Part shown: piece by piece, positions 32,092 through 42,931 of the stretch
How the letters are laid out: each line of letters opens with the position of its first letter
Position numbering within the stretch: position 1 is the first letter of the stretch
DNA from: a virus
Taxonomy: Duplodnaviria > Heunggongvirae > Uroviricota > Caudoviricetes
IMG/VR virus record: IMGVR_UViG_3300045996_002451
Location: 1 to 64,000 of that record
DNA: 64,000 bases
Strand: one strand, 5' to 3'
The notes under the pieces: model-generated
Told to the model about the DNA's origin: nothing
Seen by the model: the letters and a program-made list of their open reading frames with translations, nothing else
The model's database searches: none
Position numbers and translations under genes: made by a program

Positions 32092-33675
32092 TTAGGCAAC
32101 GGGCAGTTCTTCGAGGCGATGACCATACTGCGCGTGTAGCCAGCGAAGTCCCGTCTCAGTATCACTGAAGTCACCGTTGAGCTGCGCTTCGTAGGCTGCC
32201 GCCACCGCTTCTCCGATGTGGGGACCGCCCTTGTACTCGAAGTAAGGCATCACGTGCCGTCCGAGTACCAGTTTGGCGGGCGGCTCGTAGTAGACGTTCA
32301 GCTTTTCGGCTAGCTCCAGCATGAAGAACGCGGCTACCGGCATCCCGGTTGGCAGCGGCGGTCGACCGCTGGCGTCTGCTTCCATCAGCCACGCAAGCAT
32401 CTGGATGTTGGCCGGAGCCAGGCGCTTGGCCAGACGACGCACCACTGTCTCTGGTCGATCGCTGTTCAGGATGTCCCGGTGGGCCAGGTGATCCTCAACC
32501 AATGGTACTACCTGCGCGGTGATCTGCGGATGCATCTTGGTGATCCCGATCCGGTCCAGGAACCGCTGGGCGATGGGACCGCCTGCGCGTTCATGCCCGT
32601 GACTGGTCCAGCGCAGCTTGCCCTTTTTCTCCAGTTGCGCGGTGACTACCGGCTTGGCGAAGTCGTGACAGAGGGCGGAAAACACGAGTACCGCCCTGGC
32701 TTCGGGTTCCAACTTTTCGCGGATAGCGATGTTGTTGGCCGCATCCACGACGTACCGGGTGTGCCGGTAGACATCCCCTTCGGGATGCCACTCCGGGTCT
32801 TGTGGGCACCCATACATCCGGCGCAGTTCTGGGTAGAAAACGTCCCAGAGCGTGCTGGACAAGAACTCCAGTCCGAGGGAAGGACGGGTGCTCTTGGTGG
32901 CCCACTTCAGCCATTCTTCCGCTACTCGTTCCCGAGAGACACAGCGCCCTTTGTCGGTGAGTCGACTGAGGGCGAGGTAGTCGCCGGTGGCACGGTAGAA
33001 GTTGCGCCCGTGCCAGGTCTTTAACTCCGGGTATGCTCCCAGTTCCGGATCCGGCGCATCCTCGCGATACCGCTGGCGGATCTGGATGCCCAGGTTGTTG
33101 AGCAGATCCTCGGTCTGCACCTCGACGTCCCAACCAAAGCGGGAAACGAACTGCATCCCGCGTAGGGCCCGTAGTGGATCGTCCGCGAAGAGGTTCATGT
33201 CTACTGCACGCAGCAGGCCTTGCTGGATGTCTTCGACCCCGTCAAAGAAGTCGAGTAGCTCTCCGGTGAGAGGATCAAACAGGAGCGCGTTACACGTGTA
33301 ATCGCGCCGCCGACAGGCTTCGCTAGGAAGCATCTGAGGATCGTACTCGACTACATAGTCGTGGCGGGTCGGATCGTTGCCCTGCCTGCTGTCTTTACGC
33401 GGTAGGCTGACGTCGTAGGTGGCGCCGTCCACGCGCCACTTGAGGACACCAAAGCTGGAACCTTCCAGTTGGACGGAGCCGGGCTGCTGTTCCAGAAGGT
33501 CCTGAAGAGCTGGAAAAGGGAGGCCGTAGACCTCGACGTCGATGTCCTTGGGTTCGAGTCCTAGGAGGGCGTCGCGGACACAGCCTCCGACCAGGTAGCC
33601 CTGAAGGCCTCTAGCCTTCAGGTCCAGTAGGAACTTCCGGAGTTGGGACGTCACCGGGATCTTTAGGGTCTGCAT
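32092..33675 (-). CDS. cca: tRNA nucleotidyltransferase (CCA-adding/poly(A) polymerase family) with HD domain
   Basis: LVGGCVRD, DIDVE, RRDYTCNAL, DDPLRALR, HPEGDVYRHT, CHDFAK. Confidence 0.9.
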   Translation of the reverse strand: MQTLKIPVTSQLRKFLLDLKARGLQGYLVGGCVRDALLGLEPKDIDVEVYGLPFPALQDLLEQQPGSVQLEGSSFGVLKWRVDGATYDVSLPRKDSRQGNDPTRHDYVVEYDPQMLPSEACRRRDYTCNALLFDPLTGELLDFFDGVEDIQQGLLRAVDMNLFADDPLRALRGMQFVSRFGWDVEVQTEDLLNNLGIQIRQRYREDAPDPELGAYPELKTWHGRNFYRATGDYLALSRLTDKGRCVSRERVAEEWLKWATKSTRPSLGLEFLSSTLWDVFYPELRRMYGCPQDPEWHPEGDVYRHTRYVVDAANNIAIREKLEPEARAVLVFSALCHDFAKPVVTAQLEKKGKLRWTSHGHERAGGPIAQRFLDRIGITKMHPQITAQVVPLVEDHLAHRDILNSDRPETVVRRLAKRLAPANIQMLAWLMEADASGRPPLPTGMPVAAFFMLELAEKLNVYYEPPAKLVLGRHVMPYFEYKGGPHIGEAVAAAYEAQLNGDFSDTETGLRWLHAQYGHRLEELPVA

Positions 33676-35077: not shown

Positions 35078-36802
35078 CTAGATATTGCCCAGCGCAAATT
35101 GCCCCATGATGTTCGGTGTGGAGGCATCAAAACCCACACAATCGATCATTCCCCGATCTTTGGGATCGGCGATGGTGAACCCGTTCGAGACCATACCGCA
35201 CACGATCAGCTTGGCGTCGATGCCCATCTTCTCCCGGTACGCGCGCAGGGCCTGGACGGGCTGTACCGGTCCAGCGTACGTCTCGGAGTCCGTGTAGACC
35301 ACGAAGACATCGAACGGGATCTTCTTTGCCAGCGCGTAACGCATCGGCAAGGAGCAGTCGGTGGAGCCGAAGGCAAGGTTGTTGACTTCGTTGCATGCAT
35401 CGGTCAGCCGCTGGCGCGGACTGACTTTCAGCTCACTGATCCCATCGATCTCGTCCGCTGTTGCGCGGTTACGCGCGTAGTAACCCCGGCTGCCTGCGGT
35501 GAAGCCCGTGATCATGTACTGGTCTTCGACGTTTGCCGTGACCAAGGCCATCGCCACGGAGCCCACGCGCGGGGAGAGCCCCTGCACGCCGCCGCACATT
35601 CCACCCGTCATCGAGCCCGAGACGTCCAGGGCCAGCATCCACCGCTTGCCGGTCGGCTCCACGTTCTTGAACGCCAGGTAGAACGCCTTGTCCAGTCCGT
35701 CCACGATCTGACGCACAGGAGACCAGACGTTGTCCCCTTTCAGGGATCTGCCGGACTCGTACGTCTTCATCGCAGTGAGCACGGCGATCGGATGGATCCG
35801 CGAAGCCGCCAGTCCTGCCGGATCGGTCAGCTTGTTCACCACGAACTTGGTGGCGTCGGACATCGGTCCCAGGACTCCGTAGCGGGTCATGTTCGCCAGG
35901 TTGCGCAGCATCGCCGTAAGACCCATCTCCGGCAGCAAGGCCTCCCAGACAGCCGGGCTGGTCTTGTACTGCGTCGGGATGCACTCGTGCGGCAGCCGGA
36001 ACTCCTTGAGGACCGTGATCACGTCCTTTTCGGTCGGTACCCGCTTGATCAGCTCGAAGCCCCGGATCATATCCGGCAGGTGCTGCGAAAGATCTTCGTA
36101 CATCACCGCACCGGTGGACAGCTCGCTGCCGCACTTGACGCCCTTCTTGCGCGAGACCGTACGCGTACCGAGATCGCCGCCCACGGACCAACGCATCGCC
36201 GCGTCCTTGCTCTTGCTCTCCGTGATCGGATGCGCGAGGCGCAAGACGTCGCGATGGCTCCAGCCGTCCCGCTGCTGATACTTGATCAACTGCAGGGCGA
36301 GGGAGTTGTCCGAGCGCTCCGTGTACCAGTTGGCCACGGCACGTCGCAGTCCTCGACCCCAGCCGCGCATGCCATCGACGTGCTCGCAGAACTGGAACAG
36401 GTGGGTGCCGATGCGACATACCTTGGGTAGTGCCGAGAGGGCAGCCGCCCGGGTCGGGTCGTCGCCATAGCTGGCCGCGATCGCCAGGACGAAGATCGCC
36501 TGGTCGTTCTTGGGTGCTCGCGCCTGATCCGAGACTTCCGTCACGATCTGTACGGTCCGGAGACCATCCGCCTTGACGCACTCCTGTGCCGCCTTCGCGT
36601 TCTCCAGGGTCAGCTTCTGCTGCGTGGCGTAGTAGGAACCGCCTTCACTTCCCAGGATGAGGAAGCGCTGGAGGCGGGTCCAGCAATCCACGCCAAAGAC
36701 GACGCCTCCGGCACTGTTGGGGACCATGTCGGCTTCTCGGCCCGGGATCGCCCGCGTCTGCGGCGTCTTCTTGCTGCTCAATGTACCCTTCAGATAACTC
36801 AT
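35078..36802 (-). CDS. rsr: Ro60 / Rsr TROVE-domain RNA-binding protein
   Basis: NSAGGVVF, RLQRFLILGSEGGSYY, GWGRGLRRAV, KYQQRDGWSHRDVLRLAHP, TAMLRNL, vWA LDVSGSM, VYTDSET. Confidence 0.97.
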   Translation of the reverse strand: MSYLKGTLSSKKTPQTRAIPGREADMVPNSAGGVVFGVDCWTRLQRFLILGSEGGSYYATQQKLTLENAKAAQECVKADGLRTVQIVTEVSDQARAPKNDQAIFVLAIAASYGDDPTRAAALSALPKVCRIGTHLFQFCEHVDGMRGWGRGLRRAVANWYTERSDNSLALQLIKYQQRDGWSHRDVLRLAHPITESKSKDAAMRWSVGGDLGTRTVSRKKGVKCGSELSTGAVMYEDLSQHLPDMIRGFELIKRVPTEKDVITVLKEFRLPHECIPTQYKTSPAVWEALLPEMGLTAMLRNLANMTRYGVLGPMSDATKFVVNKLTDPAGLAASRIHPIAVLTAMKTYESGRSLKGDNVWSPVRQIVDGLDKAFYLAFKNVEPTGKRWMLALDVSGSMTGGMCGGVQGLSPRVGSVAMALVTANVEDQYMITGFTAGSRGYYARNRATADEIDGISELKVSPRQRLTDACNEVNNLAFGSTDCSLPMRYALAKKIPFDVFVVYTDSETYAGPVQPVQALRAYREKMGIDAKLIVCGMVSNGFTIADPKDRGMIDCVGFDASTPNIMGQFALGNI

Positions 36803-36864
36803 TGCACACTCTCTTTCGGCCCGTTTACGGGCGTTACACGTGTATCACACGTCATACAACACTA

Positions 36865-37019
36865 CAGGGGAGGTAGGAGTCGAACCTACACGACACACTG
36901 CCAAGTCGTTATCTCAACAGTAGCAGACGGGAAAGCTAACGACACTCGACCGTACTGCTTATTACCGTGTCTGACCCAGGGTTGGTCCACTGGCGCTCTG
37001 ACCATTAAGCTACTCCCCT
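36865..37019 (-). ncRNA. tRNA-like RNA with ~80-nt insert in variable-arm position (possible Y module)
   Basis: AGGGGAG/CTCCCCT acceptor, canonical D and T arms; insert GACAC...GGTCGAGTGTCGTTA...TAACGACTTGGC...GTGTC. Confidence 0.7.
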
Positions 37020-37143
37020 AAGAAACCATGTCCGGGGTAGGACTCTCACCTATTTGATTTCAAGCAAGAACGGGTGGCCACCCGTCTTCCTGCCCTCTCC
37101 GACTATACGGTCCCGAACTCTACCGAGCTGTTTCCAGCTCAAC

Positions 37144-37221
37144 TCAACGTAGGGGGAGTTGAACACCCCGACCTCAATCACGGTTTCCGTGACTGCGCTC
37201 TTACCCCTGAGCTATACGCCG
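37144..37221 (-). ncRNA. tRNA mimic, anticodon loop replaced by long hairpin
   Basis: CGGCGTA/TACGTTG, GCTC D-stem, CAGTCACGG-AAA-CCGTGATTG, TTCAACT T-loop. Confidence 0.75.
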
Positions 37222-37258
37222 TGCTTAACTTAGTGGTCTCCACTGAGTTAAGGGGGGC

Positions 37259-37331
37259 CGATCGTGGTAGGAGTTGAACCTACGACCTCCAGGTGTACAT
37301 CCTGGCGCTCTACCAACTGAGCTACACGATC
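37259..37331 (-). tRNA. atypical tRNA, GTA anticodon (Tyr-like; short variable loop, A32, C37)
   Basis: full cloverleaf GATCGTG/CACGATC, CCAGG-ATGTACA-CCTGG; no encoded CCA. Confidence 0.7.
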
Positions 37332-37335
37332 GACA

Positions 37336-37404
37336 TTAGGACAGGCAAGTTGATTGAAGTGGGGAGTTCATGCGAGATAACCCACCTCATTCGGCCCGTC
37401 TTAA
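37336..37404 (-). ncRNA. short Y RNA-like (Ro60-binding helix)
   Basis: GACGGGCCGAATG...GGGTTATC...ACTTGCCTGTC, bulged C. Confidence 0.75.
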
Positions 37405-37408
37405 AAGT

Positions 37409-37786
37409 TTACTGGGTTGTGAAGCGGCAGTTGCTTTTACGCGTATGCTCCTTCAAGTTGACCTTGATCGGGCAGCGCTTGGAGTTCAAGCGTGCCAGGA
37501 TGTGTCCCTCGTGCGGGTTGTAGTAGTGCAGCGGTGGATAGTCCCAGATCGCAACCTCAGTCTTGCTCCAGTCCATCACGAAGCTGCGCTCGGCAAAGCC
37601 CCAGATGACGCCATGGTTGTCCCGTTTGAGCAGCACGTAGCGGCGCCAGCGGGGGATCGGGATCTTTTCTGAAGACAGGGCACGTTGGACGCCCCGCTTA
37701 TTGAACGGACTACCCCCGGTGACATCAGTGCCTGTGTTCCACATGGCGCGTTGGATGCGCGCGCGTTTGGTGGTCAGTTTAGGCAT
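37409..37786 (-). CDS. basic hypothetical protein inside RNA cluster
   Basis: AAGGAGG RBS, 125 aa, K/R-rich. Confidence 0.7.
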   Translation of the reverse strand: MPKLTTKRARIQRAMWNTGTDVTGGSPFNKRGVQRALSSEKIPIPRWRRYVLLKRDNHGVIWGFAERSFVMDWSKTEVAIWDYPPLHYYNPHEGHILARLNSKRCPIKVNLKEHTRKSNCRFTTQ

Positions 37787-37810
37787 GACAGCCTCCTTGG
37801 GGTAAATGTT

Positions 37811-37941
37811 GCGGCCTGCGGGAATCTAACCCACACTCGTTAGGTGTACTGCGCTTACTCGCTTGCTTGAACATCCCGTCTGGAATGGCGTGAAGGAAGA
37901 CGGGCCTACCAGGTCTGCACTGAAGCGCACATAGAGGCCGC
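37811..37941 (-). ncRNA. tRNA-like-domain RNA (acceptor + T-arm, ~105-nt body)
   Basis: GCGGCCT/AGGCCGC and GTGGG-TTAGATT-CCCGC; no canonical D arm. Confidence 0.5.
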
Positions 37942-38092
37942 TTAGTCCGCACGAATGAGTCCCCGTGCCATACGGCAACTCAGTCATTGTACCAAGCGGT
38001 GATCTCTAGACAGGGACCTCGGACGATTTGCAGTCGCCCTCTTAGCCTGTGCTACCAACTCTGCTCTCGGGCCGCACGAAATTGTTTGACTA

Positions 38093-38236
38093 CGCCAGGG
38101 GATGGACTCGAACCACCGACCCGTAGTGTATGGTAACCTTCAAACGCCGACCCCGACCAGGGTAGTTAGCCCTCGCTGAGATAAGTGTGTAAGAAGACAT
38201 GTTGGACTGCTGCTCTACCAACTGAGCTACCCTGGC
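38093..38236 (-). ncRNA. tRNA with circularly permuted Y module in anticodon arm
   Basis: GCCAGGG/CCCTGGC, canonical D and T arms; insert TCTTC..ACTTATCTC-hairpin-GGGGTCGG..GAAGGTTACC. Confidence 0.7.
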
Positions 38237-38242
38237 AAGGGA

Positions 38243-38309
38243 GTCCGGGCAAGTGGTTGCGGCGAGGGGTGTTACTTGAAAGGGTAACCCTCATTGCTCC
38301 GGCCCGAAC
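38243..38309 (-). ncRNA. short Y RNA-like
   Basis: GTTCGGGCCGGAG...GGGTTACC...ACTTGCCCGGAC. Confidence 0.75.
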
Positions 38310-38315
38310 AAAAAC

Positions 38316-38434
38316 TTTGAAGAGGACAAGGGAGTTAACCTCGACTGAAACGGCCACCAAGGCAGCGCCCGACTCGAACGGGCTTCGTCTTGTTTTGTAA
38401 GCAAGATAACCGAAGTCATCCGGCCCTCTTCAAA
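38316..38434 (-). ncRNA. YrlA-like Y RNA (T-arm plus acceptor-like hairpin)
   Basis: TTTGAAGAGGGCCGGATG..GGTTATC..GCCCG-TTCGAGT-CGGGC..GCTGCC-TT-GGTGGC..CTTGTCCTCTTCAAA. Confidence 0.75.
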
Positions 38435-38516
38435 TGAAGGTGGTTGCTGCGACCTGCCTAGCGGTATCCCCACCGGTATGGAGATATGGTTCCGCGGTCT
38501 GCGCTCTCACCACCAG

Positions 38517-38615
38517 GATACACCGTGGGACTCGAACCCACCCGTATGACACTTTTCAGGTCATCGCCGTCCCTGGTTCTTCACCAGGCGCTCTGCCAAC
38601 TGAGCTACGTGCATC
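38517..38615 (-). ncRNA. atypical tRNA-like RNA (loop TGAAGAA, G33; long variable region)
   Basis: D arm GCTCAGTTGGCAGAGC, CCTGG/CCAGG stem, GTGGG-TTCGAGT-CCCAC. Confidence 0.7.
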
Positions 38616-38734
38616 ACACCAACTATTTAGTTGTAAGGGAGGCAGGGAACATCAGCTAGTCGCGCTTTGCTGACTCTTCTAGGGGCTTTGTATCTGTACG
38701 TCTACTCGGGTAACCATCCCCTTACACCTGCCAA

Positions 38735-38806
38735 GCTGCAACGTGGGACTCGGACCCACACAAACCAAGCGTACTTAGTTGCTCTACCAGTTAAGCTAGT
38801 TGCAGC
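38735..38806 (-). ncRNA. tRNA mimic with UACG tetraloop instead of anticodon loop
   Basis: GCTGCAAC/GTTGCAGC, ACTAAG-TACG-CTTGGT, T-loop TCCGAGT. Confidence 0.75.
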
Positions 38807-38851
38807 TCTCTGAAAACTGAAAGGACTCTCACCCACTCAGTTGCCAGAAAA

Positions 38852-39163
38852 TCAGTCGGACCAGGTAATCTGGGCGTCATCCCAGCGCACGTTGTACTCG
38901 ACCGGGGAGACGGTGGGCCACTCGCCGACCCAGAGGATCTGAGTCTGCTCTTCGGAAGGCCCGTCGGAGTAAGCCGAGAACTCCTGTCCAGTCTGGGGAC
39001 CCGTCAGGTTCTGCGCCGTGGTGAACCCGGTCCACGGATCGTAGGACCGCACCGCGCACGTTTCTACTGTGGTCGCAGTGGGTTCCGCGCGGCTCTGGGT
39101 GCCTGGAAAAAGAAGACTGGCTGCGAGGGCCAGGATCAGGGCGAACAGTACTGGGAACTTCAT
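38852..39163 (-). CDS. putative secreted protein
   Basis: signal peptide MKFPVLFALILALAASLL...SRA; GGAGG RBS. Confidence 0.7.
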   Translation of the reverse strand: MKFPVLFALILALAASLLFPGTQSRAEPTATTVETCAVRSYDPWTGFTTAQNLTGPQTGQEFSAYSDGPSEEQTQILWVGEWPTVSPVEYNVRWDDAQITWSD

Positions 39164-39221
39164 GGAAACCTCCGTTCAGGTAAAAGATTACGAACTGCTC
39201 AGGTTACCCGAGCGTGGTTAG

Positions 39222-39341
39222 GTGGGGAAGCAGGAATCGAACCTGCGTCTCGATCTCCTCAAGATAAACCTTCAACACCGGCCCATTGCTGGACAAAAAA
39301 GAAGAAGGGTTTACGCGCCTTGCCACTAGGCCATTCCCCAC
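39222..39341 (-). ncRNA. tRNA with circularly permuted Y module in anticodon arm
   Basis: GTGGGGAA/TTCCCCAC, D and T arms; TAAACCCTTC..TTGTCCA-GCAA-TGGGCCGG..GAAGGTTTA. Confidence 0.8.
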
Positions 39342-39414
39342 ATGTGATCCGCTATGAAATTGAAACAGTCTGGGTAGGGACGGAGGTGCTGACGCCCCCA
39401 CCCCGACTGCGCTA

Positions 39415-39548
39415 GGACCAACTACCTCGATTACGCCAGGCAGCCCACGAGAAGGCACTTCCGGTCTAGGGAGCACAGCGATCCCTCGCTGTTCCGGTCA
39501 CCCGTTCTGGGTGGAGACAGTAACTCCCACCTGTTTACCTGCTAGTCC
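39415..39548 (-). ncRNA. unknown structured RNA, copy A
   Basis: paralog of 39688..39827 with compensatory stem changes. Confidence 0.7.
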
Positions 39549-39552
39549 AATA

Positions 39553-39625
39553 GAGCGGGAGAGGGACTTGAACCCTCAGTCTTTGGGTTATGAGCCCAAC
39601 GTTTTACCAATTACACTATCCCGCA
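39553..39625 (-). tRNA. tRNA-Met(CAT), initiator-like
   Basis: unpaired 1:72, TTGGG-CTCATAA-CCCAA with three consecutive G-C pairs; no encoded CCA. Confidence 0.88.
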
Positions 39626-39687
39626 ACAAATGAGGGTTAGGTAGGGGACGACCACCCGTTGTCTTGATCTGTCCCCTACCGTTCTCC

Positions 39688-39827
39688 AGAGTTAGACATC
39701 CCCGATTACAGCAGGCACCACACGGGAAGGCGCGTCCGGTCAGAGTGCAAAGGCATCCCTGCCCTTTCCGACCTCTGTTCTAGAGGTTAGATACGTTAAC
39801 ACTCACCTGTTTGCCTTGTCTAACTCT
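39688..39827 (-). ncRNA. unknown structured RNA, copy B
   Basis: 11-bp terminal stem AGAGTTAGACA/TGTCTAACTCT; conserved loops AGAAC, GGGA, TTCYCGTG. Confidence 0.7.
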
Positions 39828-40248
39828 TCCGTAGCTACTTCCTGACGGCTATCGCTTTTCGAACCTCACGGGAAGTGATCCCTTCGTCAACATTCAACCT
39901 ACCCCGTATTAAACGGATCGATCTAGTTAACCACGCAGTAAACTGCGCCGGAGGAACGTGTCCGGTCTTGCGCTGGACGAACCTAGCTCAGACTACCCCA
40001 CAAGGGTGGTTATCAGGTGGCCCGACTGCGTCTTGCGACGTCACCACGGTTGGGCCTTCTTCAGGTGTTACCCCGAAGCCGTTATTTAGTTGTGATTGCG
40101 TCAACCTACACATTCAGGGACCACGGGACTAGCCCCCTGAACCCTTCCTGCGCCCCAGTTCCCGATTCCGGGCGCAGCTCTCCACGGTACCTCGCTGTTT
40201 GCACGTTCAAGAAAGTTCGTGCTCCAGCTTCCCTCGGTTGACACAGCT

Positions 40249-40384
40249 TAGATGGACAAGGAGTTTTTGTTTGGGGGTTAGGTGGGACTCGAACCCACAA
40301 CCTCCGGGCTATGCACCCGGCGCTCTACCGATTGAGCTACTCGTGCAGTGTGAGCGCGATAACCCAAACAACACGGCCCATCTA
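40249..40384 (-). ncRNA. Y RNA whose effector domain is a D-anticodon-T tRNA body attached at the acceptor end
   Basis: TAGATGGGCCG..TTGTTTGGGTTATC..D arm..CCGGG-TGCATAG-CCCGG..T arm..CCCAAACAA..CTTGTCCATCTA. Confidence 0.8.
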
Positions 40385-40391
40385 GAAAATG

Positions 40392-40568
40392 AAGTCGAGC
40401 AAGTTAGCGCAGTCGGAGGTTTATGGCCGTGCGTACAGGGTCCCGAAGGCTGACCTGCCGTTTACACGAGTACCTTCACCCAAAGGGCACCAGTACCCTC
40501 GCTGTGCCAGTTGCCTGGCCTGAGCTACCTTAGGACCATTAGATTACCGAAATGCTTCGGCTCGACTT
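40392..40568 (-). ncRNA. long Y RNA-like with multi-hairpin effector domain
   Basis: AAGTCGAGCCGAAG..GGTAATC...ACTTGCTCGACTT. Confidence 0.72.
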
Positions 40569-40918
40569 AAAACTACCAGAGCGGTCCGTATACCGCTCTG
40601 GTCGCGGTAGTGCTTTAGTGCCTACCTCACTTCTCCCAGTCTCGTTGGGAGTTCCCGCCGACCTTATCTTTTAGCAGGTCAGTCGCTGCAGATTATGACG
40701 CTATCTGCGATCGTTGCGCAAGAGTCGTTATACGGCGTCTCTCCTGCCCTAAAGCTGGGCAGTTGCGCTCCAGGAAGCAACACGCTGCAACTGTTGTAAC
40801 TAACGGTCTGTAAACGGTTTCGGAGTAAGCCCTTCCGCAGCCTAGGTACCCTCTGCGGTGCTTGTTTACAAACGGTTGTCCCGTCACAGCGGACGGTGTG
40901 TCGCTTACCTGGCTTCCG

Positions 40919-41394: not shown

Positions 41395-41467
41395 TTGAGC
41401 AGGCAAGTTAAGCGGGGCTGGGGGTGATCGTTAACAGTGATAACCCAATCCCATTCGGCCCGATCAA
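41395..41467 (-). ncRNA. short Y RNA-like
   Basis: TTGATCGGGCCGAATG..GGGTTATC..ACTTGCCTGCTCAA. Confidence 0.75.
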
Positions 41468-41502
41468 AAAACTGGAGAAAGCGCGCTGGCGATCTTTGCT
41501 AT

Positions 41503-42085: not shown

Positions 42086-42931
42086 TTACACGGGTACTCG
42101 GCGCGTGAGTTCCTGCCGGATCTCTTCCAGCATGGCGCCCATATGATTCTGGCCCTGTTCATCCGGCCCATCGCCCCAGTACGCATCCCACGGTGCCGCA
42201 TGAATGAGCGTTCTGCCCCCCGTAGCGAGGAGACGTTCTGCCAGCAGTGGGTGCTGATCGAACTTGGCCCATAAGAGCTGAGCCATCACGTGTCCGCGTA
42301 AGGTGTCCCAGTCCGGGATCGCTTCGACCTTACCACCCAGCTTCTTCGCCGCTTCCGGGGTCGGAGCTAGCTCTACTTTGGTCCGCTCCTTCGGGTCTGC
42401 GCACTTGGCACCCTGATAGGCGTGCTCCGCAGTCAGCCAGAGCGTTCCCTCGAAGATCACGGGGTGTGAGCTGAAATTACTCAGCCAACTCCACTCCGGC
42501 GTCTTGCTGTTGAACCGAATGGCGTCATCCGGCTGAAACCGGTGGGGCCAGCGCTGCGCGGCTTCCTGGATCAAGAGATGCGTGTGACAGAACTGATTGT
42601 CGGCACAATAGCAACAGAGCACCGCGCGGCCCTTCTTTTCCAGACCAAAGAGATAGAGCTGTCGCCAGGAGGCTCCGGCAGACCGCATGATCGCCTGGTA
42701 CTGCTCAGTATACTCGGCGTCGCTCAGCGGTGGGTAGCCTGGGTACGGCATCGGGAGACCGCGCTGGAGCGCCGTGTGATTCTTGTGTCCCAGGACCATC
42801 GGCCAGTTAGGCGCGAAGCCGCGGGCCCAGTCTTTACCGCTCTTGACCGTCACGTCCACGTAGTGGTCTAGCAGTGGGGTGGAGCCGCGTAGTTGGGCCC
42901 GGCGTAATTGGACTACCTGGATCTCACTCAT
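42086..42931 (-). CDS. NADAR (YbiA-like) domain protein with N-terminal Cys/His domain
   Basis: WLSNF, TAEHAYQGAK, AKFDQH, LLATG, DAYWG, GQNHMG; N-term LCCYC...CHTH. Confidence 0.9.
   Translation of the reverse strand: MSEIQVVQLRRAQLRGSTPLLDHYVDVTVKSGKDWARGFAPNWPMVLGHKNHTALQRGLPMPYPGYPPLSDAEYTEQYQAIMRSAGASWRQLYLFGLEKKGRAVLCCYCADNQFCHTHLLIQEAAQRWPHRFQPDDAIRFNSKTPEWSWLSNFSSHPVIFEGTLWLTAEHAYQGAKCADPKERTKVELAPTPEAAKKLGGKVEAIPDWDTLRGHVMAQLLWAKFDQHPLLAERLLATGGRTLIHAAPWDAYWGDGPDEQGQNHMGAMLEEIRQELTRRVPV

What the first reader, a model, noticed from the sequence alone, without database searches (positions are those of the whole stretch)
39222..39341. Circularly permuted YrlA: intact tRNA acceptor, D and T arms with the Ro60 helix in place of the anticodon loop
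The order is acceptor-5', D arm, TAAACCCTTC, pyrimidine loop, TTGTCCA-GCAA-TGGGCCGG, GAAGGTTTA, T arm, acceptor-3'. The Y helix strands are reversed relative to normal Y RNAs (the usual 3' strand comes first) and are capped by a GNRA tetraloop. The acceptor end is free, with a G-1:C73 pair. 38093..38236 repeats this design with a different sequence. In YrlA the acceptor is closed and the Y helix is open; here it is the reverse. Inference: these RNAs could be matured by RNase P and the phage CCA enzyme, and possibly aminoacylated while bound to Ro60.
Basis: partly seen in the sequence, partly recalled or inferred. Interest (0 to 1): 0.88.

Follow-up and report, generated by a model that had tools for sequence, protein, structure and literature searches.

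The report
tRNA-shaped Y RNA beside phage Ro60
A 211-kb phage encodes, upstream of its Ro60 gene, a 120-base RNA built like a complete tRNA that carries a loop-closed copy of the Ro60-docking Y-RNA stem as a side arm, and the same design, which I found in no paper or Rfam family, sits next to Ro60 genes in many phages and bacteria.

Summary
The structure at 39222-39341 (minus strand) is real. It has an 8-bp acceptor stem with G-1:C73, canonical D and T arms, and a 48-nt hairpin. That hairpin repeats the phage's own Y-RNA stem in swapped strand order (UUGUCCA-GCAA-UGGGCCGG, bulged C, then GGUUUAUC).

A covariance model built only from 87 bacterial sequences scores it 84 bits; ordinary tRNAs score 52 or less. 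Across 125 relatives next to Ro60 genes, 95-96% of predicted pairs form, and every acceptor pair covaries.

By homology the Y module does not replace the anticodon loop. It splits the 5' strand of the anticodon stem between nt 28 and 29, which leaves a perfect 5-bp stem and the 7-nt loop UUGAGGA. This split arm occurs in 52 of 125 relatives, against about 1 per set in shuffles.

G-1:C73 occurs in 36% of the family and in 1 of 179 ordinary non-His tRNAs.

Ro60 binding, RNase P and CCA maturation, and charging are inferred, not shown.

This scan has noted the same design on other DNA several times. I found no published description. I rate it a new variant of a known kind.

The parts
39222..39341 (-). 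The whole RNA, 120 nt, from G-1 (39341) to C73 (39222). It is a tRNA-shaped Y RNA.
   Evidence: Fold. R1 93.3 bits. The independent model R2 gives 84.1 bits, E = 1e-20. ARAGORN finds it only when introns are allowed.
39334..39341 (-). Acceptor 5' strand: G-1 (39341) plus UGGGGAA. The preceding bases are CACAU.
   Evidence: In the family alignments, 98.8-98.9% of acceptor cells pair and all 7 pairs show compensatory changes.
39317..39333 (-). U8 and G9, then the D arm GCCU-AGUGGCA-AGGC, with A14, G15 and G18G19.
   Evidence: aligned to the model's D arm. The D stem is 94-98% paired in the family.
39314..39316 (-). G26, C27 and G28. C27 and G28 are the first two bases of the split anticodon stem and pair with G43 and C42.
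   Evidence: The same split occurs in 18 of 38 and 34 of 87 relatives, against about 0.5-0.9 per set in shuffles.
39266..39313 (-). The 48-nt Y module (side arm). It holds the distal stem UAAACC(C)UUC/GAAGGUUU, the internal loop UUCUUUU/UGUU, and the Ro60-type helix closed by GCAA.
   Evidence: The distal stem is 93% paired and the Y helix 90-93% paired, both with covariation.
39278..39296 (-). The permuted Ro60-type helix: UUGUCCA (39296-39290), cap GCAA (39289-39286), UGGGCCGG (39285-39278). The bulged C is at 39280.
   Evidence: It matches the GGGCCG(R) and YUUGYCC strands of the phage's ordinary Y RNAs. The pattern occurs once; none is expected by chance.
39251..39265 (-). A29, U30, C31, the loop UUGAGGA (U33, anticodon-like GAG, G37), then G39, A40, U41, C42, G43. 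In the RNAfold optimum the overlapping bases 39249-39263 instead form the hairpin CUUGA-GGAGA-UCGAG.
39247..39250 (-). Variable loop AGAC. A44 lies opposite G26, and C48 could pair with G15.
   Evidence: Read directly from the sequence. The tertiary roles are inferred from standard tRNA numbering.
39230..39246 (-). T arm GCAGG-UUCGAUU-CCUGC.
   Evidence: The T stem is 98-99.5% paired in the family.
39222..39229 (-). Acceptor 3' strand UUCCCCA plus C73. The next bases are CUAACCA, so CCA is not encoded directly after C73.
38093..38236 (-). A second family member. Its anticodon stem, GCAGU/ACUAC, encloses the Y module, and the cap is extended by an extra hairpin.
   Evidence: Rfam tRNA 42.1 bits with a 77-nt insertion. 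R1 87.1 bits. R2 76.3 bits.
35078..36802 (-). Ro60 gene (TROVE plus Ro60 vWA domains), 2.4 kb downstream on the same strand. This is the presumed protein partner.
   Evidence: Pfam E = 2e-45 and 2e-56. PDB Rsr 2NVO and human and Xenopus Ro60 at E about 1e-111 to 1e-115.

Best explanation
39222-39341 (minus strand) encodes a tRNA-shaped Y RNA.

Structure:
- It is a full tRNA cloverleaf in normal 5'-to-3' order, with an 8-bp His-type acceptor stem (G-1:C73) and canonical D and T arms.
- It carries a 48-nt side arm that is a GCAA-capped hairpin version of the phage's own Y-RNA stem.
- By homology the arm is inserted in the 5' strand of the anticodon stem between nt 28 and 29. A 5-bp anticodon stem, the 7-nt loop UUGAGGA and a 4-nt variable loop remain.
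- It belongs to a large family, uncatalogued in Rfam, found next to Ro60 genes in phages and bacteria.

Likely mechanism (inferred):
- The RNA is cut out of a multi-RNA transcript like a tRNA. RNase P cuts after the U of CAU|G, the 3' end is trimmed, and CCA is added.
- The side arm docks on the outer surface of the phage Ro60 ring, as ordinary Y-RNA stems do.
- Ro60 thereby carries an exposed tRNA body with a free acceptor end, which recruits or occupies a tRNA-recognising factor.
- It is probably not a decoding tRNA. Its acceptor identity (His-like) and its loop (GAG, Leu-like) disagree. From general knowledge of ribosome contacts with the D and anticodon stems, a bulky arm at nt 28/29 should clash there.
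For: Shown:
- Fold and motifs.
- Ro60 lies 2.4 kb downstream on the same strand.
- R2, trained only on 87 bacterial sequences, scores the candidate 84.1 bits and ordinary tRNAs 51.8 or less.
- In the 38 viral and metagenomic members 94.9% of cells pair, and in the 87 bacterial members 96.4%, against 36-54% when the partner is slid. All 7 acceptor pairs and 6 of 7 Y-helix pairs show compensatory changes.
- Hits lie on the Ro60 strand in all but one locus (L187). In the viral loci they lie within about 1 kb of the Ro60 gene; in the bacterial loci most lie within 1-2 kb. They occur in 15 of 80 viral, 42 of 80 bacterial and 7 of 19 metagenome Ro60 loci.
- A split but perfect anticodon stem with U33 and R37 occurs in 52 of 125 members, including this one. 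Shuffles gave means of 0.5 and 0.9 per set.
- With the module removed, the remainder is a canonical 72-nt cloverleaf.
- The Y-helix cap is short, median 4 nt, and includes GNRA and UUCG loops.
- G-1:C73 occurs in 45 of 125 members against 1 of 179 ordinary non-His tRNAs.
- The phage has a separate, complete array of 38 tRNAs.

From the literature:
- M. smegmatis YrlA, which has a 7-bp acceptor stem, is cut by RNase P and gains CCA (PMC4201824).
- A phage Ro60 binds phage Y-like RNAs and host PNPase (PMC12135203).
Against: - There are no expression, end-mapping or binding data.
- For this sequence RNAfold prefers a fold without the anticodon arm: -44.2 kcal/mol, against -29.6 for the hand-built split-stem fold, or -35.9 when only the anticodon stem is enforced.
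- The Ro60-motif strand reads CCGGU here, not the published GNCGAA, although two of the phage's ordinary Y RNAs also read CCGG.
- Only 5 bp separate the bulged C from the cap. Whether Ro60 accepts a capped helix is untested.
- CCA is not encoded here.
- No close relative of this phage was found, so the candidate itself has no orthologue series.
Confidence: 0.7

Rival explanations
1. The Y stem takes the place of the whole anticodon arm, and the following 15 nt form a 5-bp hairpin (CUUGA-GGAGA-UCGAG) at the variable-arm position. On this reading the RNA has no anticodon loop at all. It would still be a Ro60-docking tRNA mimic with an open acceptor end.
For: - This is the RNAfold optimum: -44.2 kcal/mol, against -29.6 for the hand-built split-stem fold, or -35.9 when only the anticodon stem is enforced.
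- Some relatives truly lack an anticodon arm (L007, L008:5578, L016, L099, L075).
- Others enclose the module within the anticodon stem (L009:5788, L008:2458, window 38090).
Against: - The same bases give a perfect C27-G43, G28-C42, A29-U41, U30-A40, C31-G39 stem with U33 and G37, plus G26/A44 and G15/C48. About one such case per 80-90 shuffled sequences is expected.
- The paralogue at genome position 78083-78209 and 50 other relatives use the split-stem design.
- Nearest-neighbour energies ignore tRNA tertiary contacts.
Confidence: 0.3
2. It is a tRNA gene with an intervening sequence. The 48-nt module is removed and the halves joined, giving a working 72-nt tRNA (anticodon GAG, G-1:C73).
For: - Exact removal of 39266-39313 leaves a canonical cloverleaf.
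- ARAGORN in intron mode calls it a tRNA.
Against: - The 'intron' is the most conserved part of the family and carries the Ro60-type helix.
- It sits at nt 27/28, not the usual 37/38. It is far too short for a group I intron. The junction shows no bulge-helix-bulge shape (my reading of the fold).
- The phage has no RtcB.
- The phage already has a tRNA(GAG) in its real array.
- His-type acceptor features do not fit a Leu anticodon.
Confidence: 0.06
3. The RNAs are ordinary YrlA-type molecules read in the wrong register. On this reading the real ends lie in the Y helix, and the 'acceptor' is a closed hairpin shared with a neighbouring unit.
For: In bacterial tandem arrays, the acceptor strands of adjacent units can also pair: 6.0 of 7 pairs across units against 6.9 of 7 within a unit.
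Against: - The candidate stands alone. No T arm lies upstream and no D arm downstream.
- The Y strands are joined by only four bases (GCAA).
- Rfam's YrlA model finds nothing here, even at E = 10.
- RNase P cleavage of 7-bp acceptor stems would yield the tRNA-order unit in any case (PMC4201824).
Confidence: 0.03
4. It is a decayed tRNA gene that picked up a chance insertion and has no function.
For: Default ARAGORN and Rfam's tRNA model both miss it.
Against: - The independent model gives 84 bits.
- All helices pair.
- The family is conserved and covaries in 125 sequences next to Ro60.
Confidence: 0.02

Closest known systems
YrlA (Y RNA-like A; Rfam RF02553; Chen et al. 2014, PMC4201824; Wang et al. 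2018, bioRxiv 10.1101/312249)
   Same: Both are encoded next to Ro60. Both join a Ro60-type stem to a tRNA-like body with D and T arms and elbow nucleotides. In both, the Y stem meets the body at the anticodon-stem region.
   Different: - Connectivity is opposite. YrlA starts and ends in the Y stem and closes its acceptor stem with a loop. This RNA starts and ends in the acceptor stem and closes the Y stem with GCAA.
- YrlA lacks an anticodon loop and a free CCA end. This RNA probably keeps an anticodon-type loop and has a His-type 8-bp acceptor.
- The Rfam YrlA model finds no match here.
[quoted passage not shown]
   Same: Both would be Ro60 partners with a tRNA body whose acceptor end is open and CCA-tailed.
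   Different: That product is two RNA pieces held together by base pairing, with an open Y stem. Here a single chain is encoded in tRNA order.
D. radiodurans Yrn1, and the window's own element at about 40249-40392
   Same: Both are Y RNAs with D-like and T arms in tRNA order.
   Different: There the Ro60 stem occupies the acceptor position, so no acceptor end is free. Here it is a side arm of the anticodon stem.
Metazoan Y RNAs and nematode sbRNAs (RF00019, RF01656)
   Same: Both have a helix with a bulged C, followed by G(G/U)UUAUC. The phage's ordinary mini Y RNA at 37335-37403 matches these models.
   Different: In those RNAs the stem is formed by the 5' and 3' ends, and there is no tRNA body.
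tRNA-His
   Same: Both have G-1:C73, giving an 8-bp acceptor stem. The upstream context AU|G matches that of the phage's own tRNA-His.
   Different: The loop here reads GAG, not GUG, and there is a 48-nt side arm. There is no evidence of charging.
tmRNA and plant-virus tRNA-like structures
   Same: Both are tRNA mimics with a free acceptor end that tRNA enzymes can process and that can be aminoacylated.
   Different: They have different partner proteins and architectures and are unrelated to Ro60. Charging of this RNA is untested.

Membership tests
tRNA-order Y RNA family defined here (models R1 and R2) | The RNA scores well above ordinary tRNAs with a model that never saw it. | tested here: met
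   R2, built from 87 bacterial sequences, gives 84.1 bits. The best ordinary tRNA in the same search gives 51.8 bits.
tRNA-order Y RNA family defined here (models R1 and R2) | The RNA is encoded on the same strand as a Ro60 gene and within a few kb of it. | tested here: met
   Ro60 is at 35078-36802 on the minus strand, 2.4 kb downstream. The family hits cluster beside Ro60.
Y RNA (Ro60 partner RNA) | A helix with a bulged C and the conserved 5'-strand motif (GNCGAA in bacteria, per PMC4201824). | tested here: inconclusive
   The helix and bulged C are present (UGGGC[C]GG / UUGUCCA). The motif reads GCCGGU, not GCCGAA. Two of the phage's ordinary Y RNAs also read CCGG.
Y RNA (Ro60 partner RNA) | The Ro60-binding stem is formed by the RNA's 5' and 3' ends. 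| tested here: not met
   The stem is closed by the tetraloop GCAA.
Y RNA (Ro60 partner RNA) | The RNA is bound by Ro60. | not testable with these tools
   This needs an EMSA or a co-purification experiment.
YrlA (RF02553) | The RNA matches the Rfam covariance model. | tested here: not met
   No YrlA hit was found in 36700-40900 at E up to 10. The related locus L001 does give one, at 48.9 bits.
YrlA (RF02553) | The order is T arm, closed acceptor hairpin, D arm, with no free CCA end and no anticodon loop. | tested here: not met
   The order here is D arm, Y module, T arm, and the acceptor strands lie at the two ends.
YrlA (RF02553) | tRNA-like D and T arms with elbow nucleotides. | tested here: met
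   U8, A14, G18G19 and UUCGAUU are present.
tRNA (RF00005) | A standard cloverleaf that tRNA finders recognise. | tested here: not met
   Default ARAGORN does not find it, nor does Rfam's tRNA model at E up to 10. Only ARAGORN's intron mode finds it.
tRNA (RF00005) | A 7-nt anticodon loop with U33 and R37 on a 5-bp stem. | tested here: inconclusive
   The feature is present if the stem is read as split by the module. It is absent in the RNAfold optimum.
tRNA (RF00005) | Acceptor identity and anticodon agree. | tested here: not met
   G-1:C73 is His-type, whereas GAG with a short variable loop is not. The identity rules are from general knowledge.

The most novel reading that the evidence does not exclude
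[quoted passage not shown] HisRS is the first candidate because of G-1:C73. The phage Ro60 particle would then carry an aminoacylated tRNA body. That would link Ro60 RNA surveillance to translation factors, to aminoacyl-tRNA-using enzymes, or to host tRNA-targeting defences. It would also suggest what the tRNA-like domain of bacterial Y RNAs is for.
Probability: 0.15. Interest if true: 0.9.

Novelty: new variant of a known kind. Interest (0 to 1): 0.76.

Why it matters
- Since 2014 it has been unclear what the tRNA-like domain of bacterial Y RNAs does. The known form, YrlA, has neither a free acceptor end nor an anticodon loop.
- This family is a natural version with a tRNA-type acceptor end. 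Many members also have an intact anticodon arm and a His-type G-1:C73 pair. Processing, CCA addition, charging and Ro60 docking can therefore be tested directly on one short RNA.
- It may also be the missing Ro60 partner RNA in lineages where YrlA searches found few candidates. Chen et al. found few in delta-proteobacteria. Here Myxococcota, Chloroflexia and Armatimonadota loci are rich in it.
- It shows that genome annotation can mistake such genes for intron-bearing or broken tRNAs.

Tried and rejected
- Nucleotide searches of the phage collection, near and distant, found nothing. Records of the window's own genome, or of one very near it, may be left out of those collections.
- A degenerate pattern for the capped helix found nothing in the viral contigs.
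- The idea that a CCA-adding enzyme is part of the system was rejected. tblastn found no homologue near Ro60 in 179 other loci.
- The phage encodes no RtcB ligase and no HisRS.
- Eight cultured phages with Ro60 (Phox, Sparky, Pumpernickel, Comrade, NootNoot, Phosso, Sixama, GMA2) have no family member of 60 bits or more near the gene. I did not find a cultured phage host system.
- 36862-37021 scored 59.6 bits with R1, which was trained on it, but only 42 bits with R2. I do not count it as a secure member.
- No genuine tRNA of the phage is close to the candidate's body; the best is 72% identity. Its origin is therefore unresolved.
- Pair counts alone did not exclude the YrlA register in bacterial tandem arrays.

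Full report
**Setting**

The window is the first 64 kb of a 211-kb virus record, rated 98% complete. Genes around the finding run on the minus strand.

- 35078-36802 encodes a full Ro60: TROVE plus Ro60 vWA domains, with E about 1e-111 to 1e-115 to D. radiodurans Rsr, human RO60 and Xenopus Ro60.
- 32092-33675 encodes a CCA-adding-type nucleotidyltransferase with an HD domain.
- Upstream of Ro60, from about 41470 down to 36865, lies a dense row of small RNA genes.
  - Ordinary Y RNAs sit at about 41395-41468, 38320-38431, 38242-38311 and 37335-37403. The last matches Rfam Y_RNA and the nematode sbRNA family.
  - A Y stem continuous with a tRNA core sits at about 40249-40392.
  - Several tRNA look-alikes and tRNA-like genes with large inserts fill the rest.
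- The phage's real tRNA set, 38 tRNAs plus a tmRNA, is elsewhere, at 71-81 kb on the other strand.

**The observation**

On the minus strand, 39341-39222 reads as follows:

- G-1
- UGGGGAA (acceptor 5')
- UG
- GCCU-AGUGGCA-AGGC (D arm)
- G, C, G
- UAAACCCUUC
- UUCUUUU
- UUGUCCA-GCAA-UGGGCCGG
- UGUU
- GAAGGUUU
- AUC-UUGAGGA-GAUCG
- AGAC
- GCAGG-UUCGAUU-CCUGC (T arm)
- UUCCCCA (acceptor 3')
- C73

The phage's five ordinary Y RNAs share a 5' strand GGGCCG(R)-N7-9-GG(G/U)UUAUC and a 3' strand (C/U)UUGYCC. The candidate carries both, but with the 3'-type strand first and four bases (GCAA) between them. The helix keeps the single bulged C.

The permuted motif occurs once in the window; 100 shuffles gave none.

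The second element, 38093-38236, is also real. Rfam's tRNA model spans it with a 77-nt insertion.

**Is it a family?**

I found no close relative of this phage.

Loci that encode Ro60 proteins 41-57% identical carry the same design. ARAGORN in intron mode, followed by folding, revealed tRNA-order RNAs with a capped Y helix directly beside Ro60.

Fourteen of these aligned well. Model R1, built from them, separated such RNAs (about 60 to 110 bits) from ordinary tRNAs (57 bits or less). R1 then found:

- a fourth copy in this phage at genome position 78083-78209, inside the real tRNA array;
- 23 hits of 65 bits or more in 15 of 80 viral Ro60 loci;
- 87 hits of 65 bits or more in 42 of 80 bacterial Ro60 loci, mainly Armatimonadota, Chloroflexia and Myxococcota, and often as tandem arrays.

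Hits are on the Ro60 strand in all but one locus (L187).

Pair counts were as follows.

| Set | Cells paired | Slid controls | Acceptor pairs covarying | Y-helix pairs covarying |
|---|---|---|---|---|
| 38 viral and metagenomic | 94.9% | 38-51% | 7 of 7 | 6 of 7 |
| 87 bacterial | 96.4% | 36-52% | 7 of 7 | 6 of 7 |

These alignments are fitted to the model, which favours it somewhat. The slid controls and the first MAFFT alignment (90% against 41-54%) point the same way.

As an independent membership test I built R2 from the 87 bacterial sequences alone. It scores the candidate 84.1 bits (E = 1e-20), 38090-38238 at 76.3 bits, the 78083 paralogue at 88.6 bits, and ordinary tRNAs at 51.8 bits or less.

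**A correction to the anatomy**

In many relatives the stretch after GGUUAUC is a hairpin with a 7-nt, anticodon-like loop. Its stem is completed by one or two bases that lie before the Y module. A scripted test asked for a perfect 5-bp stem split in this way, plus U33, R37 and a 3-6-nt variable loop.

| Set | Members passing | Shuffle mean | Shuffle maximum |
|---|---|---|---|
| Viral and metagenomic | 18 of 38 | 0.49 | 3 |
| Bacterial | 34 of 87 | 0.94 | 4 |

The commonest insertion point among the 34 bacterial members is after nt 28 (21 of them).

The candidate passes:

- C27-G43 and G28-C42, then the module, then A29-U41, U30-A40 and C31-G39;
- loop UUGAGGA;
- variable loop AGAC;
- G26 opposite A44, and G15 with C48.

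With the module removed, the remainder is a canonical 72-nt cloverleaf.

Against this, RNAfold prefers another pairing of the same bases, CUUGA-GGAGA-UCGAG. That fold scores -44.2 kcal/mol, against -29.6 for the hand-built split-stem fold, or -35.9 when only the anticodon stem is enforced.

I therefore favour 'a side arm splitting the anticodon stem' at roughly 60:30 over 'the Y stem in place of the anticodon arm plus a variable-arm hairpin'. Both forms occur among relatives. Some relatives have no anticodon arm at all, and others enclose the module within the anticodon stem.

**The acceptor end**

| Feature | Family members | Ordinary non-His tRNAs, same loci |
|---|---|---|
| G-1 with C73 | 45 of 125 distinct (16 of 38 and 29 of 87) | 1 of 179 |
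| CCA encoded | 23 of 125 | 46 of 179 |

The bases before the 5' end are often (C/U)AU|G, the same context as the phage's own tRNA-His. This fits RNase P cutting after a U and leaving an 8-bp stem, as it does for bacterial tRNA-His (general knowledge).

G-1:C73 shows no clear link to the presence of an anticodon arm: 21 of 52 with the arm against 24 of 73 without.

**Register check**

Chen et al. warned that tandem tRNAs can imitate YrlA. The reverse could also happen.

In bacterial tandem arrays, neighbouring units' acceptor strands pair nearly as well across units (6.0 of 7) as within a unit (6.9 of 7). Pairing alone therefore does not settle the register there.

Three points favour the tRNA-order unit:

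- The caps are short, median 4 nt, with GNRA and UUCG loops.
- The acceptor stems are 7-8 bp, the feature that makes M. smegmatis YrlA an RNase P substrate.
- The candidate stands alone, with no partner strands nearby.

**How it probably works**

Shown: the fold, the family, its link to Ro60, and the tRNA-type features.

Inferred:

- The RNA is released from a multi-RNA transcript by tRNA-processing enzymes. The two mini Y RNAs at 37335-37403 and 38242-38311 each end a few bases before a tRNA-shaped gene, so RNase P may also set their 3' ends.
- The arm docks on Ro60 as ordinary Y stems do.
- The exposed tRNA body engages a tRNA-binding factor.

A 2025 study showed that a Thermus phage Ro60 binds phage Y-like RNAs and host PNPase (PMC12135203). 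A tethering role therefore has precedent.

Decoding seems unlikely, because the acceptor and anticodon identities disagree. An arm at nt 28/29 should also clash with ribosomal contacts; this last point rests on my general knowledge and was not tested.

Splicing is unlikely. The module is the conserved part, and the phage has no RtcB.

The adjacent CCA enzyme is not a conserved neighbour of Ro60 in other loci.

**Comparison with what is known, and novelty**

YrlA is defined as a circularly permuted tRNA mimic with a closed acceptor stem, no free CCA end and no anticodon loop. This RNA fails those tests and the Rfam model, so it is not a YrlA. It most likely works like one.

I found no description of the tRNA-order form in the papers I could search: Chen 2014, Wang 2018, the jumbo-phage survey, the 2025 phage Ro60 structure and a 2026 preprint on tRNA mimics. 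Two reviews were not held.

Rfam labels such RNAs, where it sees them, as tRNA with an insertion.

Earlier notes of this scan report the same design in several other genomes. Those are unchecked AI notes. My family-level tests here were done independently on my own loci.

**Verdict**

The RNA is real and conserved, and it is a new topological variant of the tRNA-like Y RNAs. The functional claims remain open.

Noticed in passing
G000:C1:78083-78209 (+), outside the window (L028:1501-1627): A fourth tRNA-order Y RNA of this phage sits inside the real tRNA array, one base before tRNA-Lys. It shares UAAACCCUUCUUC with the candidate. It has the cap GAAC, a split anticodon stem with loop CUGUUAA (GUU), and a pairable C-1:G73. 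It scores 74 bits with R1 and 88.6 bits with R2.
   Followed up: partly
window 40249-40392 (-): A tRNA core (D arm, 5-bp stem with loop UGCAUAG, T arm; Rfam tRNA 45 bits for model positions 6-65) is enclosed by a Y stem, GAUGGGCCG...CUUGUCCAUC, at the acceptor position. This is a Yrn1-like wiring in the same operon.
   Followed up: partly
window 38320-38431 (-): An ordinary-order Y RNA (GAGGGCCGGAUGACUUCGGUUAUC ... CCCUUGUCCUC) carries an internal T arm, GCCCG-UUCGAGU-CGGGC. It resembles YrlB.
   Followed up: no
window 37335-37403, 38242-38311 and 41395-41468 (-): These are three minimal Y RNAs. The first two end 5-6 nt before a tRNA-shaped gene (37331 and 38236), so RNase P cleavage of the neighbour may create their 3' ends. 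The third follows a TTGACA-N17-TAAGCT site at about 41531-41503.
   Followed up: no
window 37144-37221, 37259-37331, 38517-38612 and 38734-38806 (-): These are tRNA look-alikes with good acceptor, D and T arms but odd anticodon loops: a 17-nt region, A32/C37 around GUA, G33 with a long variable region, and a shortened loop that ARAGORN reads with a two-base anticodon ('ac'). They lie between the Y RNAs, not in the real tRNA array.
   Followed up: no
window 36862-37021 (-): A tRNA-like gene with a roughly 79-nt insert and a long variable region. It scores 59.6 bits with R1, which was trained on it, but only 42 bits with the independent R2. Its Y helix is degenerate (ACGGUCGAG). It is a doubtful member.
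   Followed up: partly
window 38852-39163 and 37409-37786 (-): Two small ORFs (103 aa, with a hydrophobic signal-like N-terminus, and 125 aa) lie inside the RNA array. Neither has a Pfam match.
   Followed up: partly
L114-L193 (bacterial contigs), e.g. L129:4853-5546, L153, L186, L187: Armatimonadota, Chloroflexia and Myxococcota contigs, some of them megabase-sized, carry tandem arrays of 2-6 tRNA-order Y RNAs beside Ro60. In L187 the array is on the strand opposite to Ro60.
   Followed up: partly
L001:5715-5983 (+): A related viral locus (Ro60 47% identical) instead has an ordinary YrlA (Rfam 48.9 bits) and two mini Y RNAs directly upstream of Ro60. Both wirings therefore occur among relatives.
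   Followed up: partly
window 42086-42931 (-): A protein with a NADAR domain and a DUF488-N3a region is encoded just upstream of the RNA array. It may be relevant to nucleic-acid ADP-ribosylation conflicts.
   Followed up: no
window 40575-40602 (-): An 11-bp terminator-like hairpin followed by a U-rich tail lies inside the RNA cluster. The array may therefore be more than one transcription unit.
   Followed up: no
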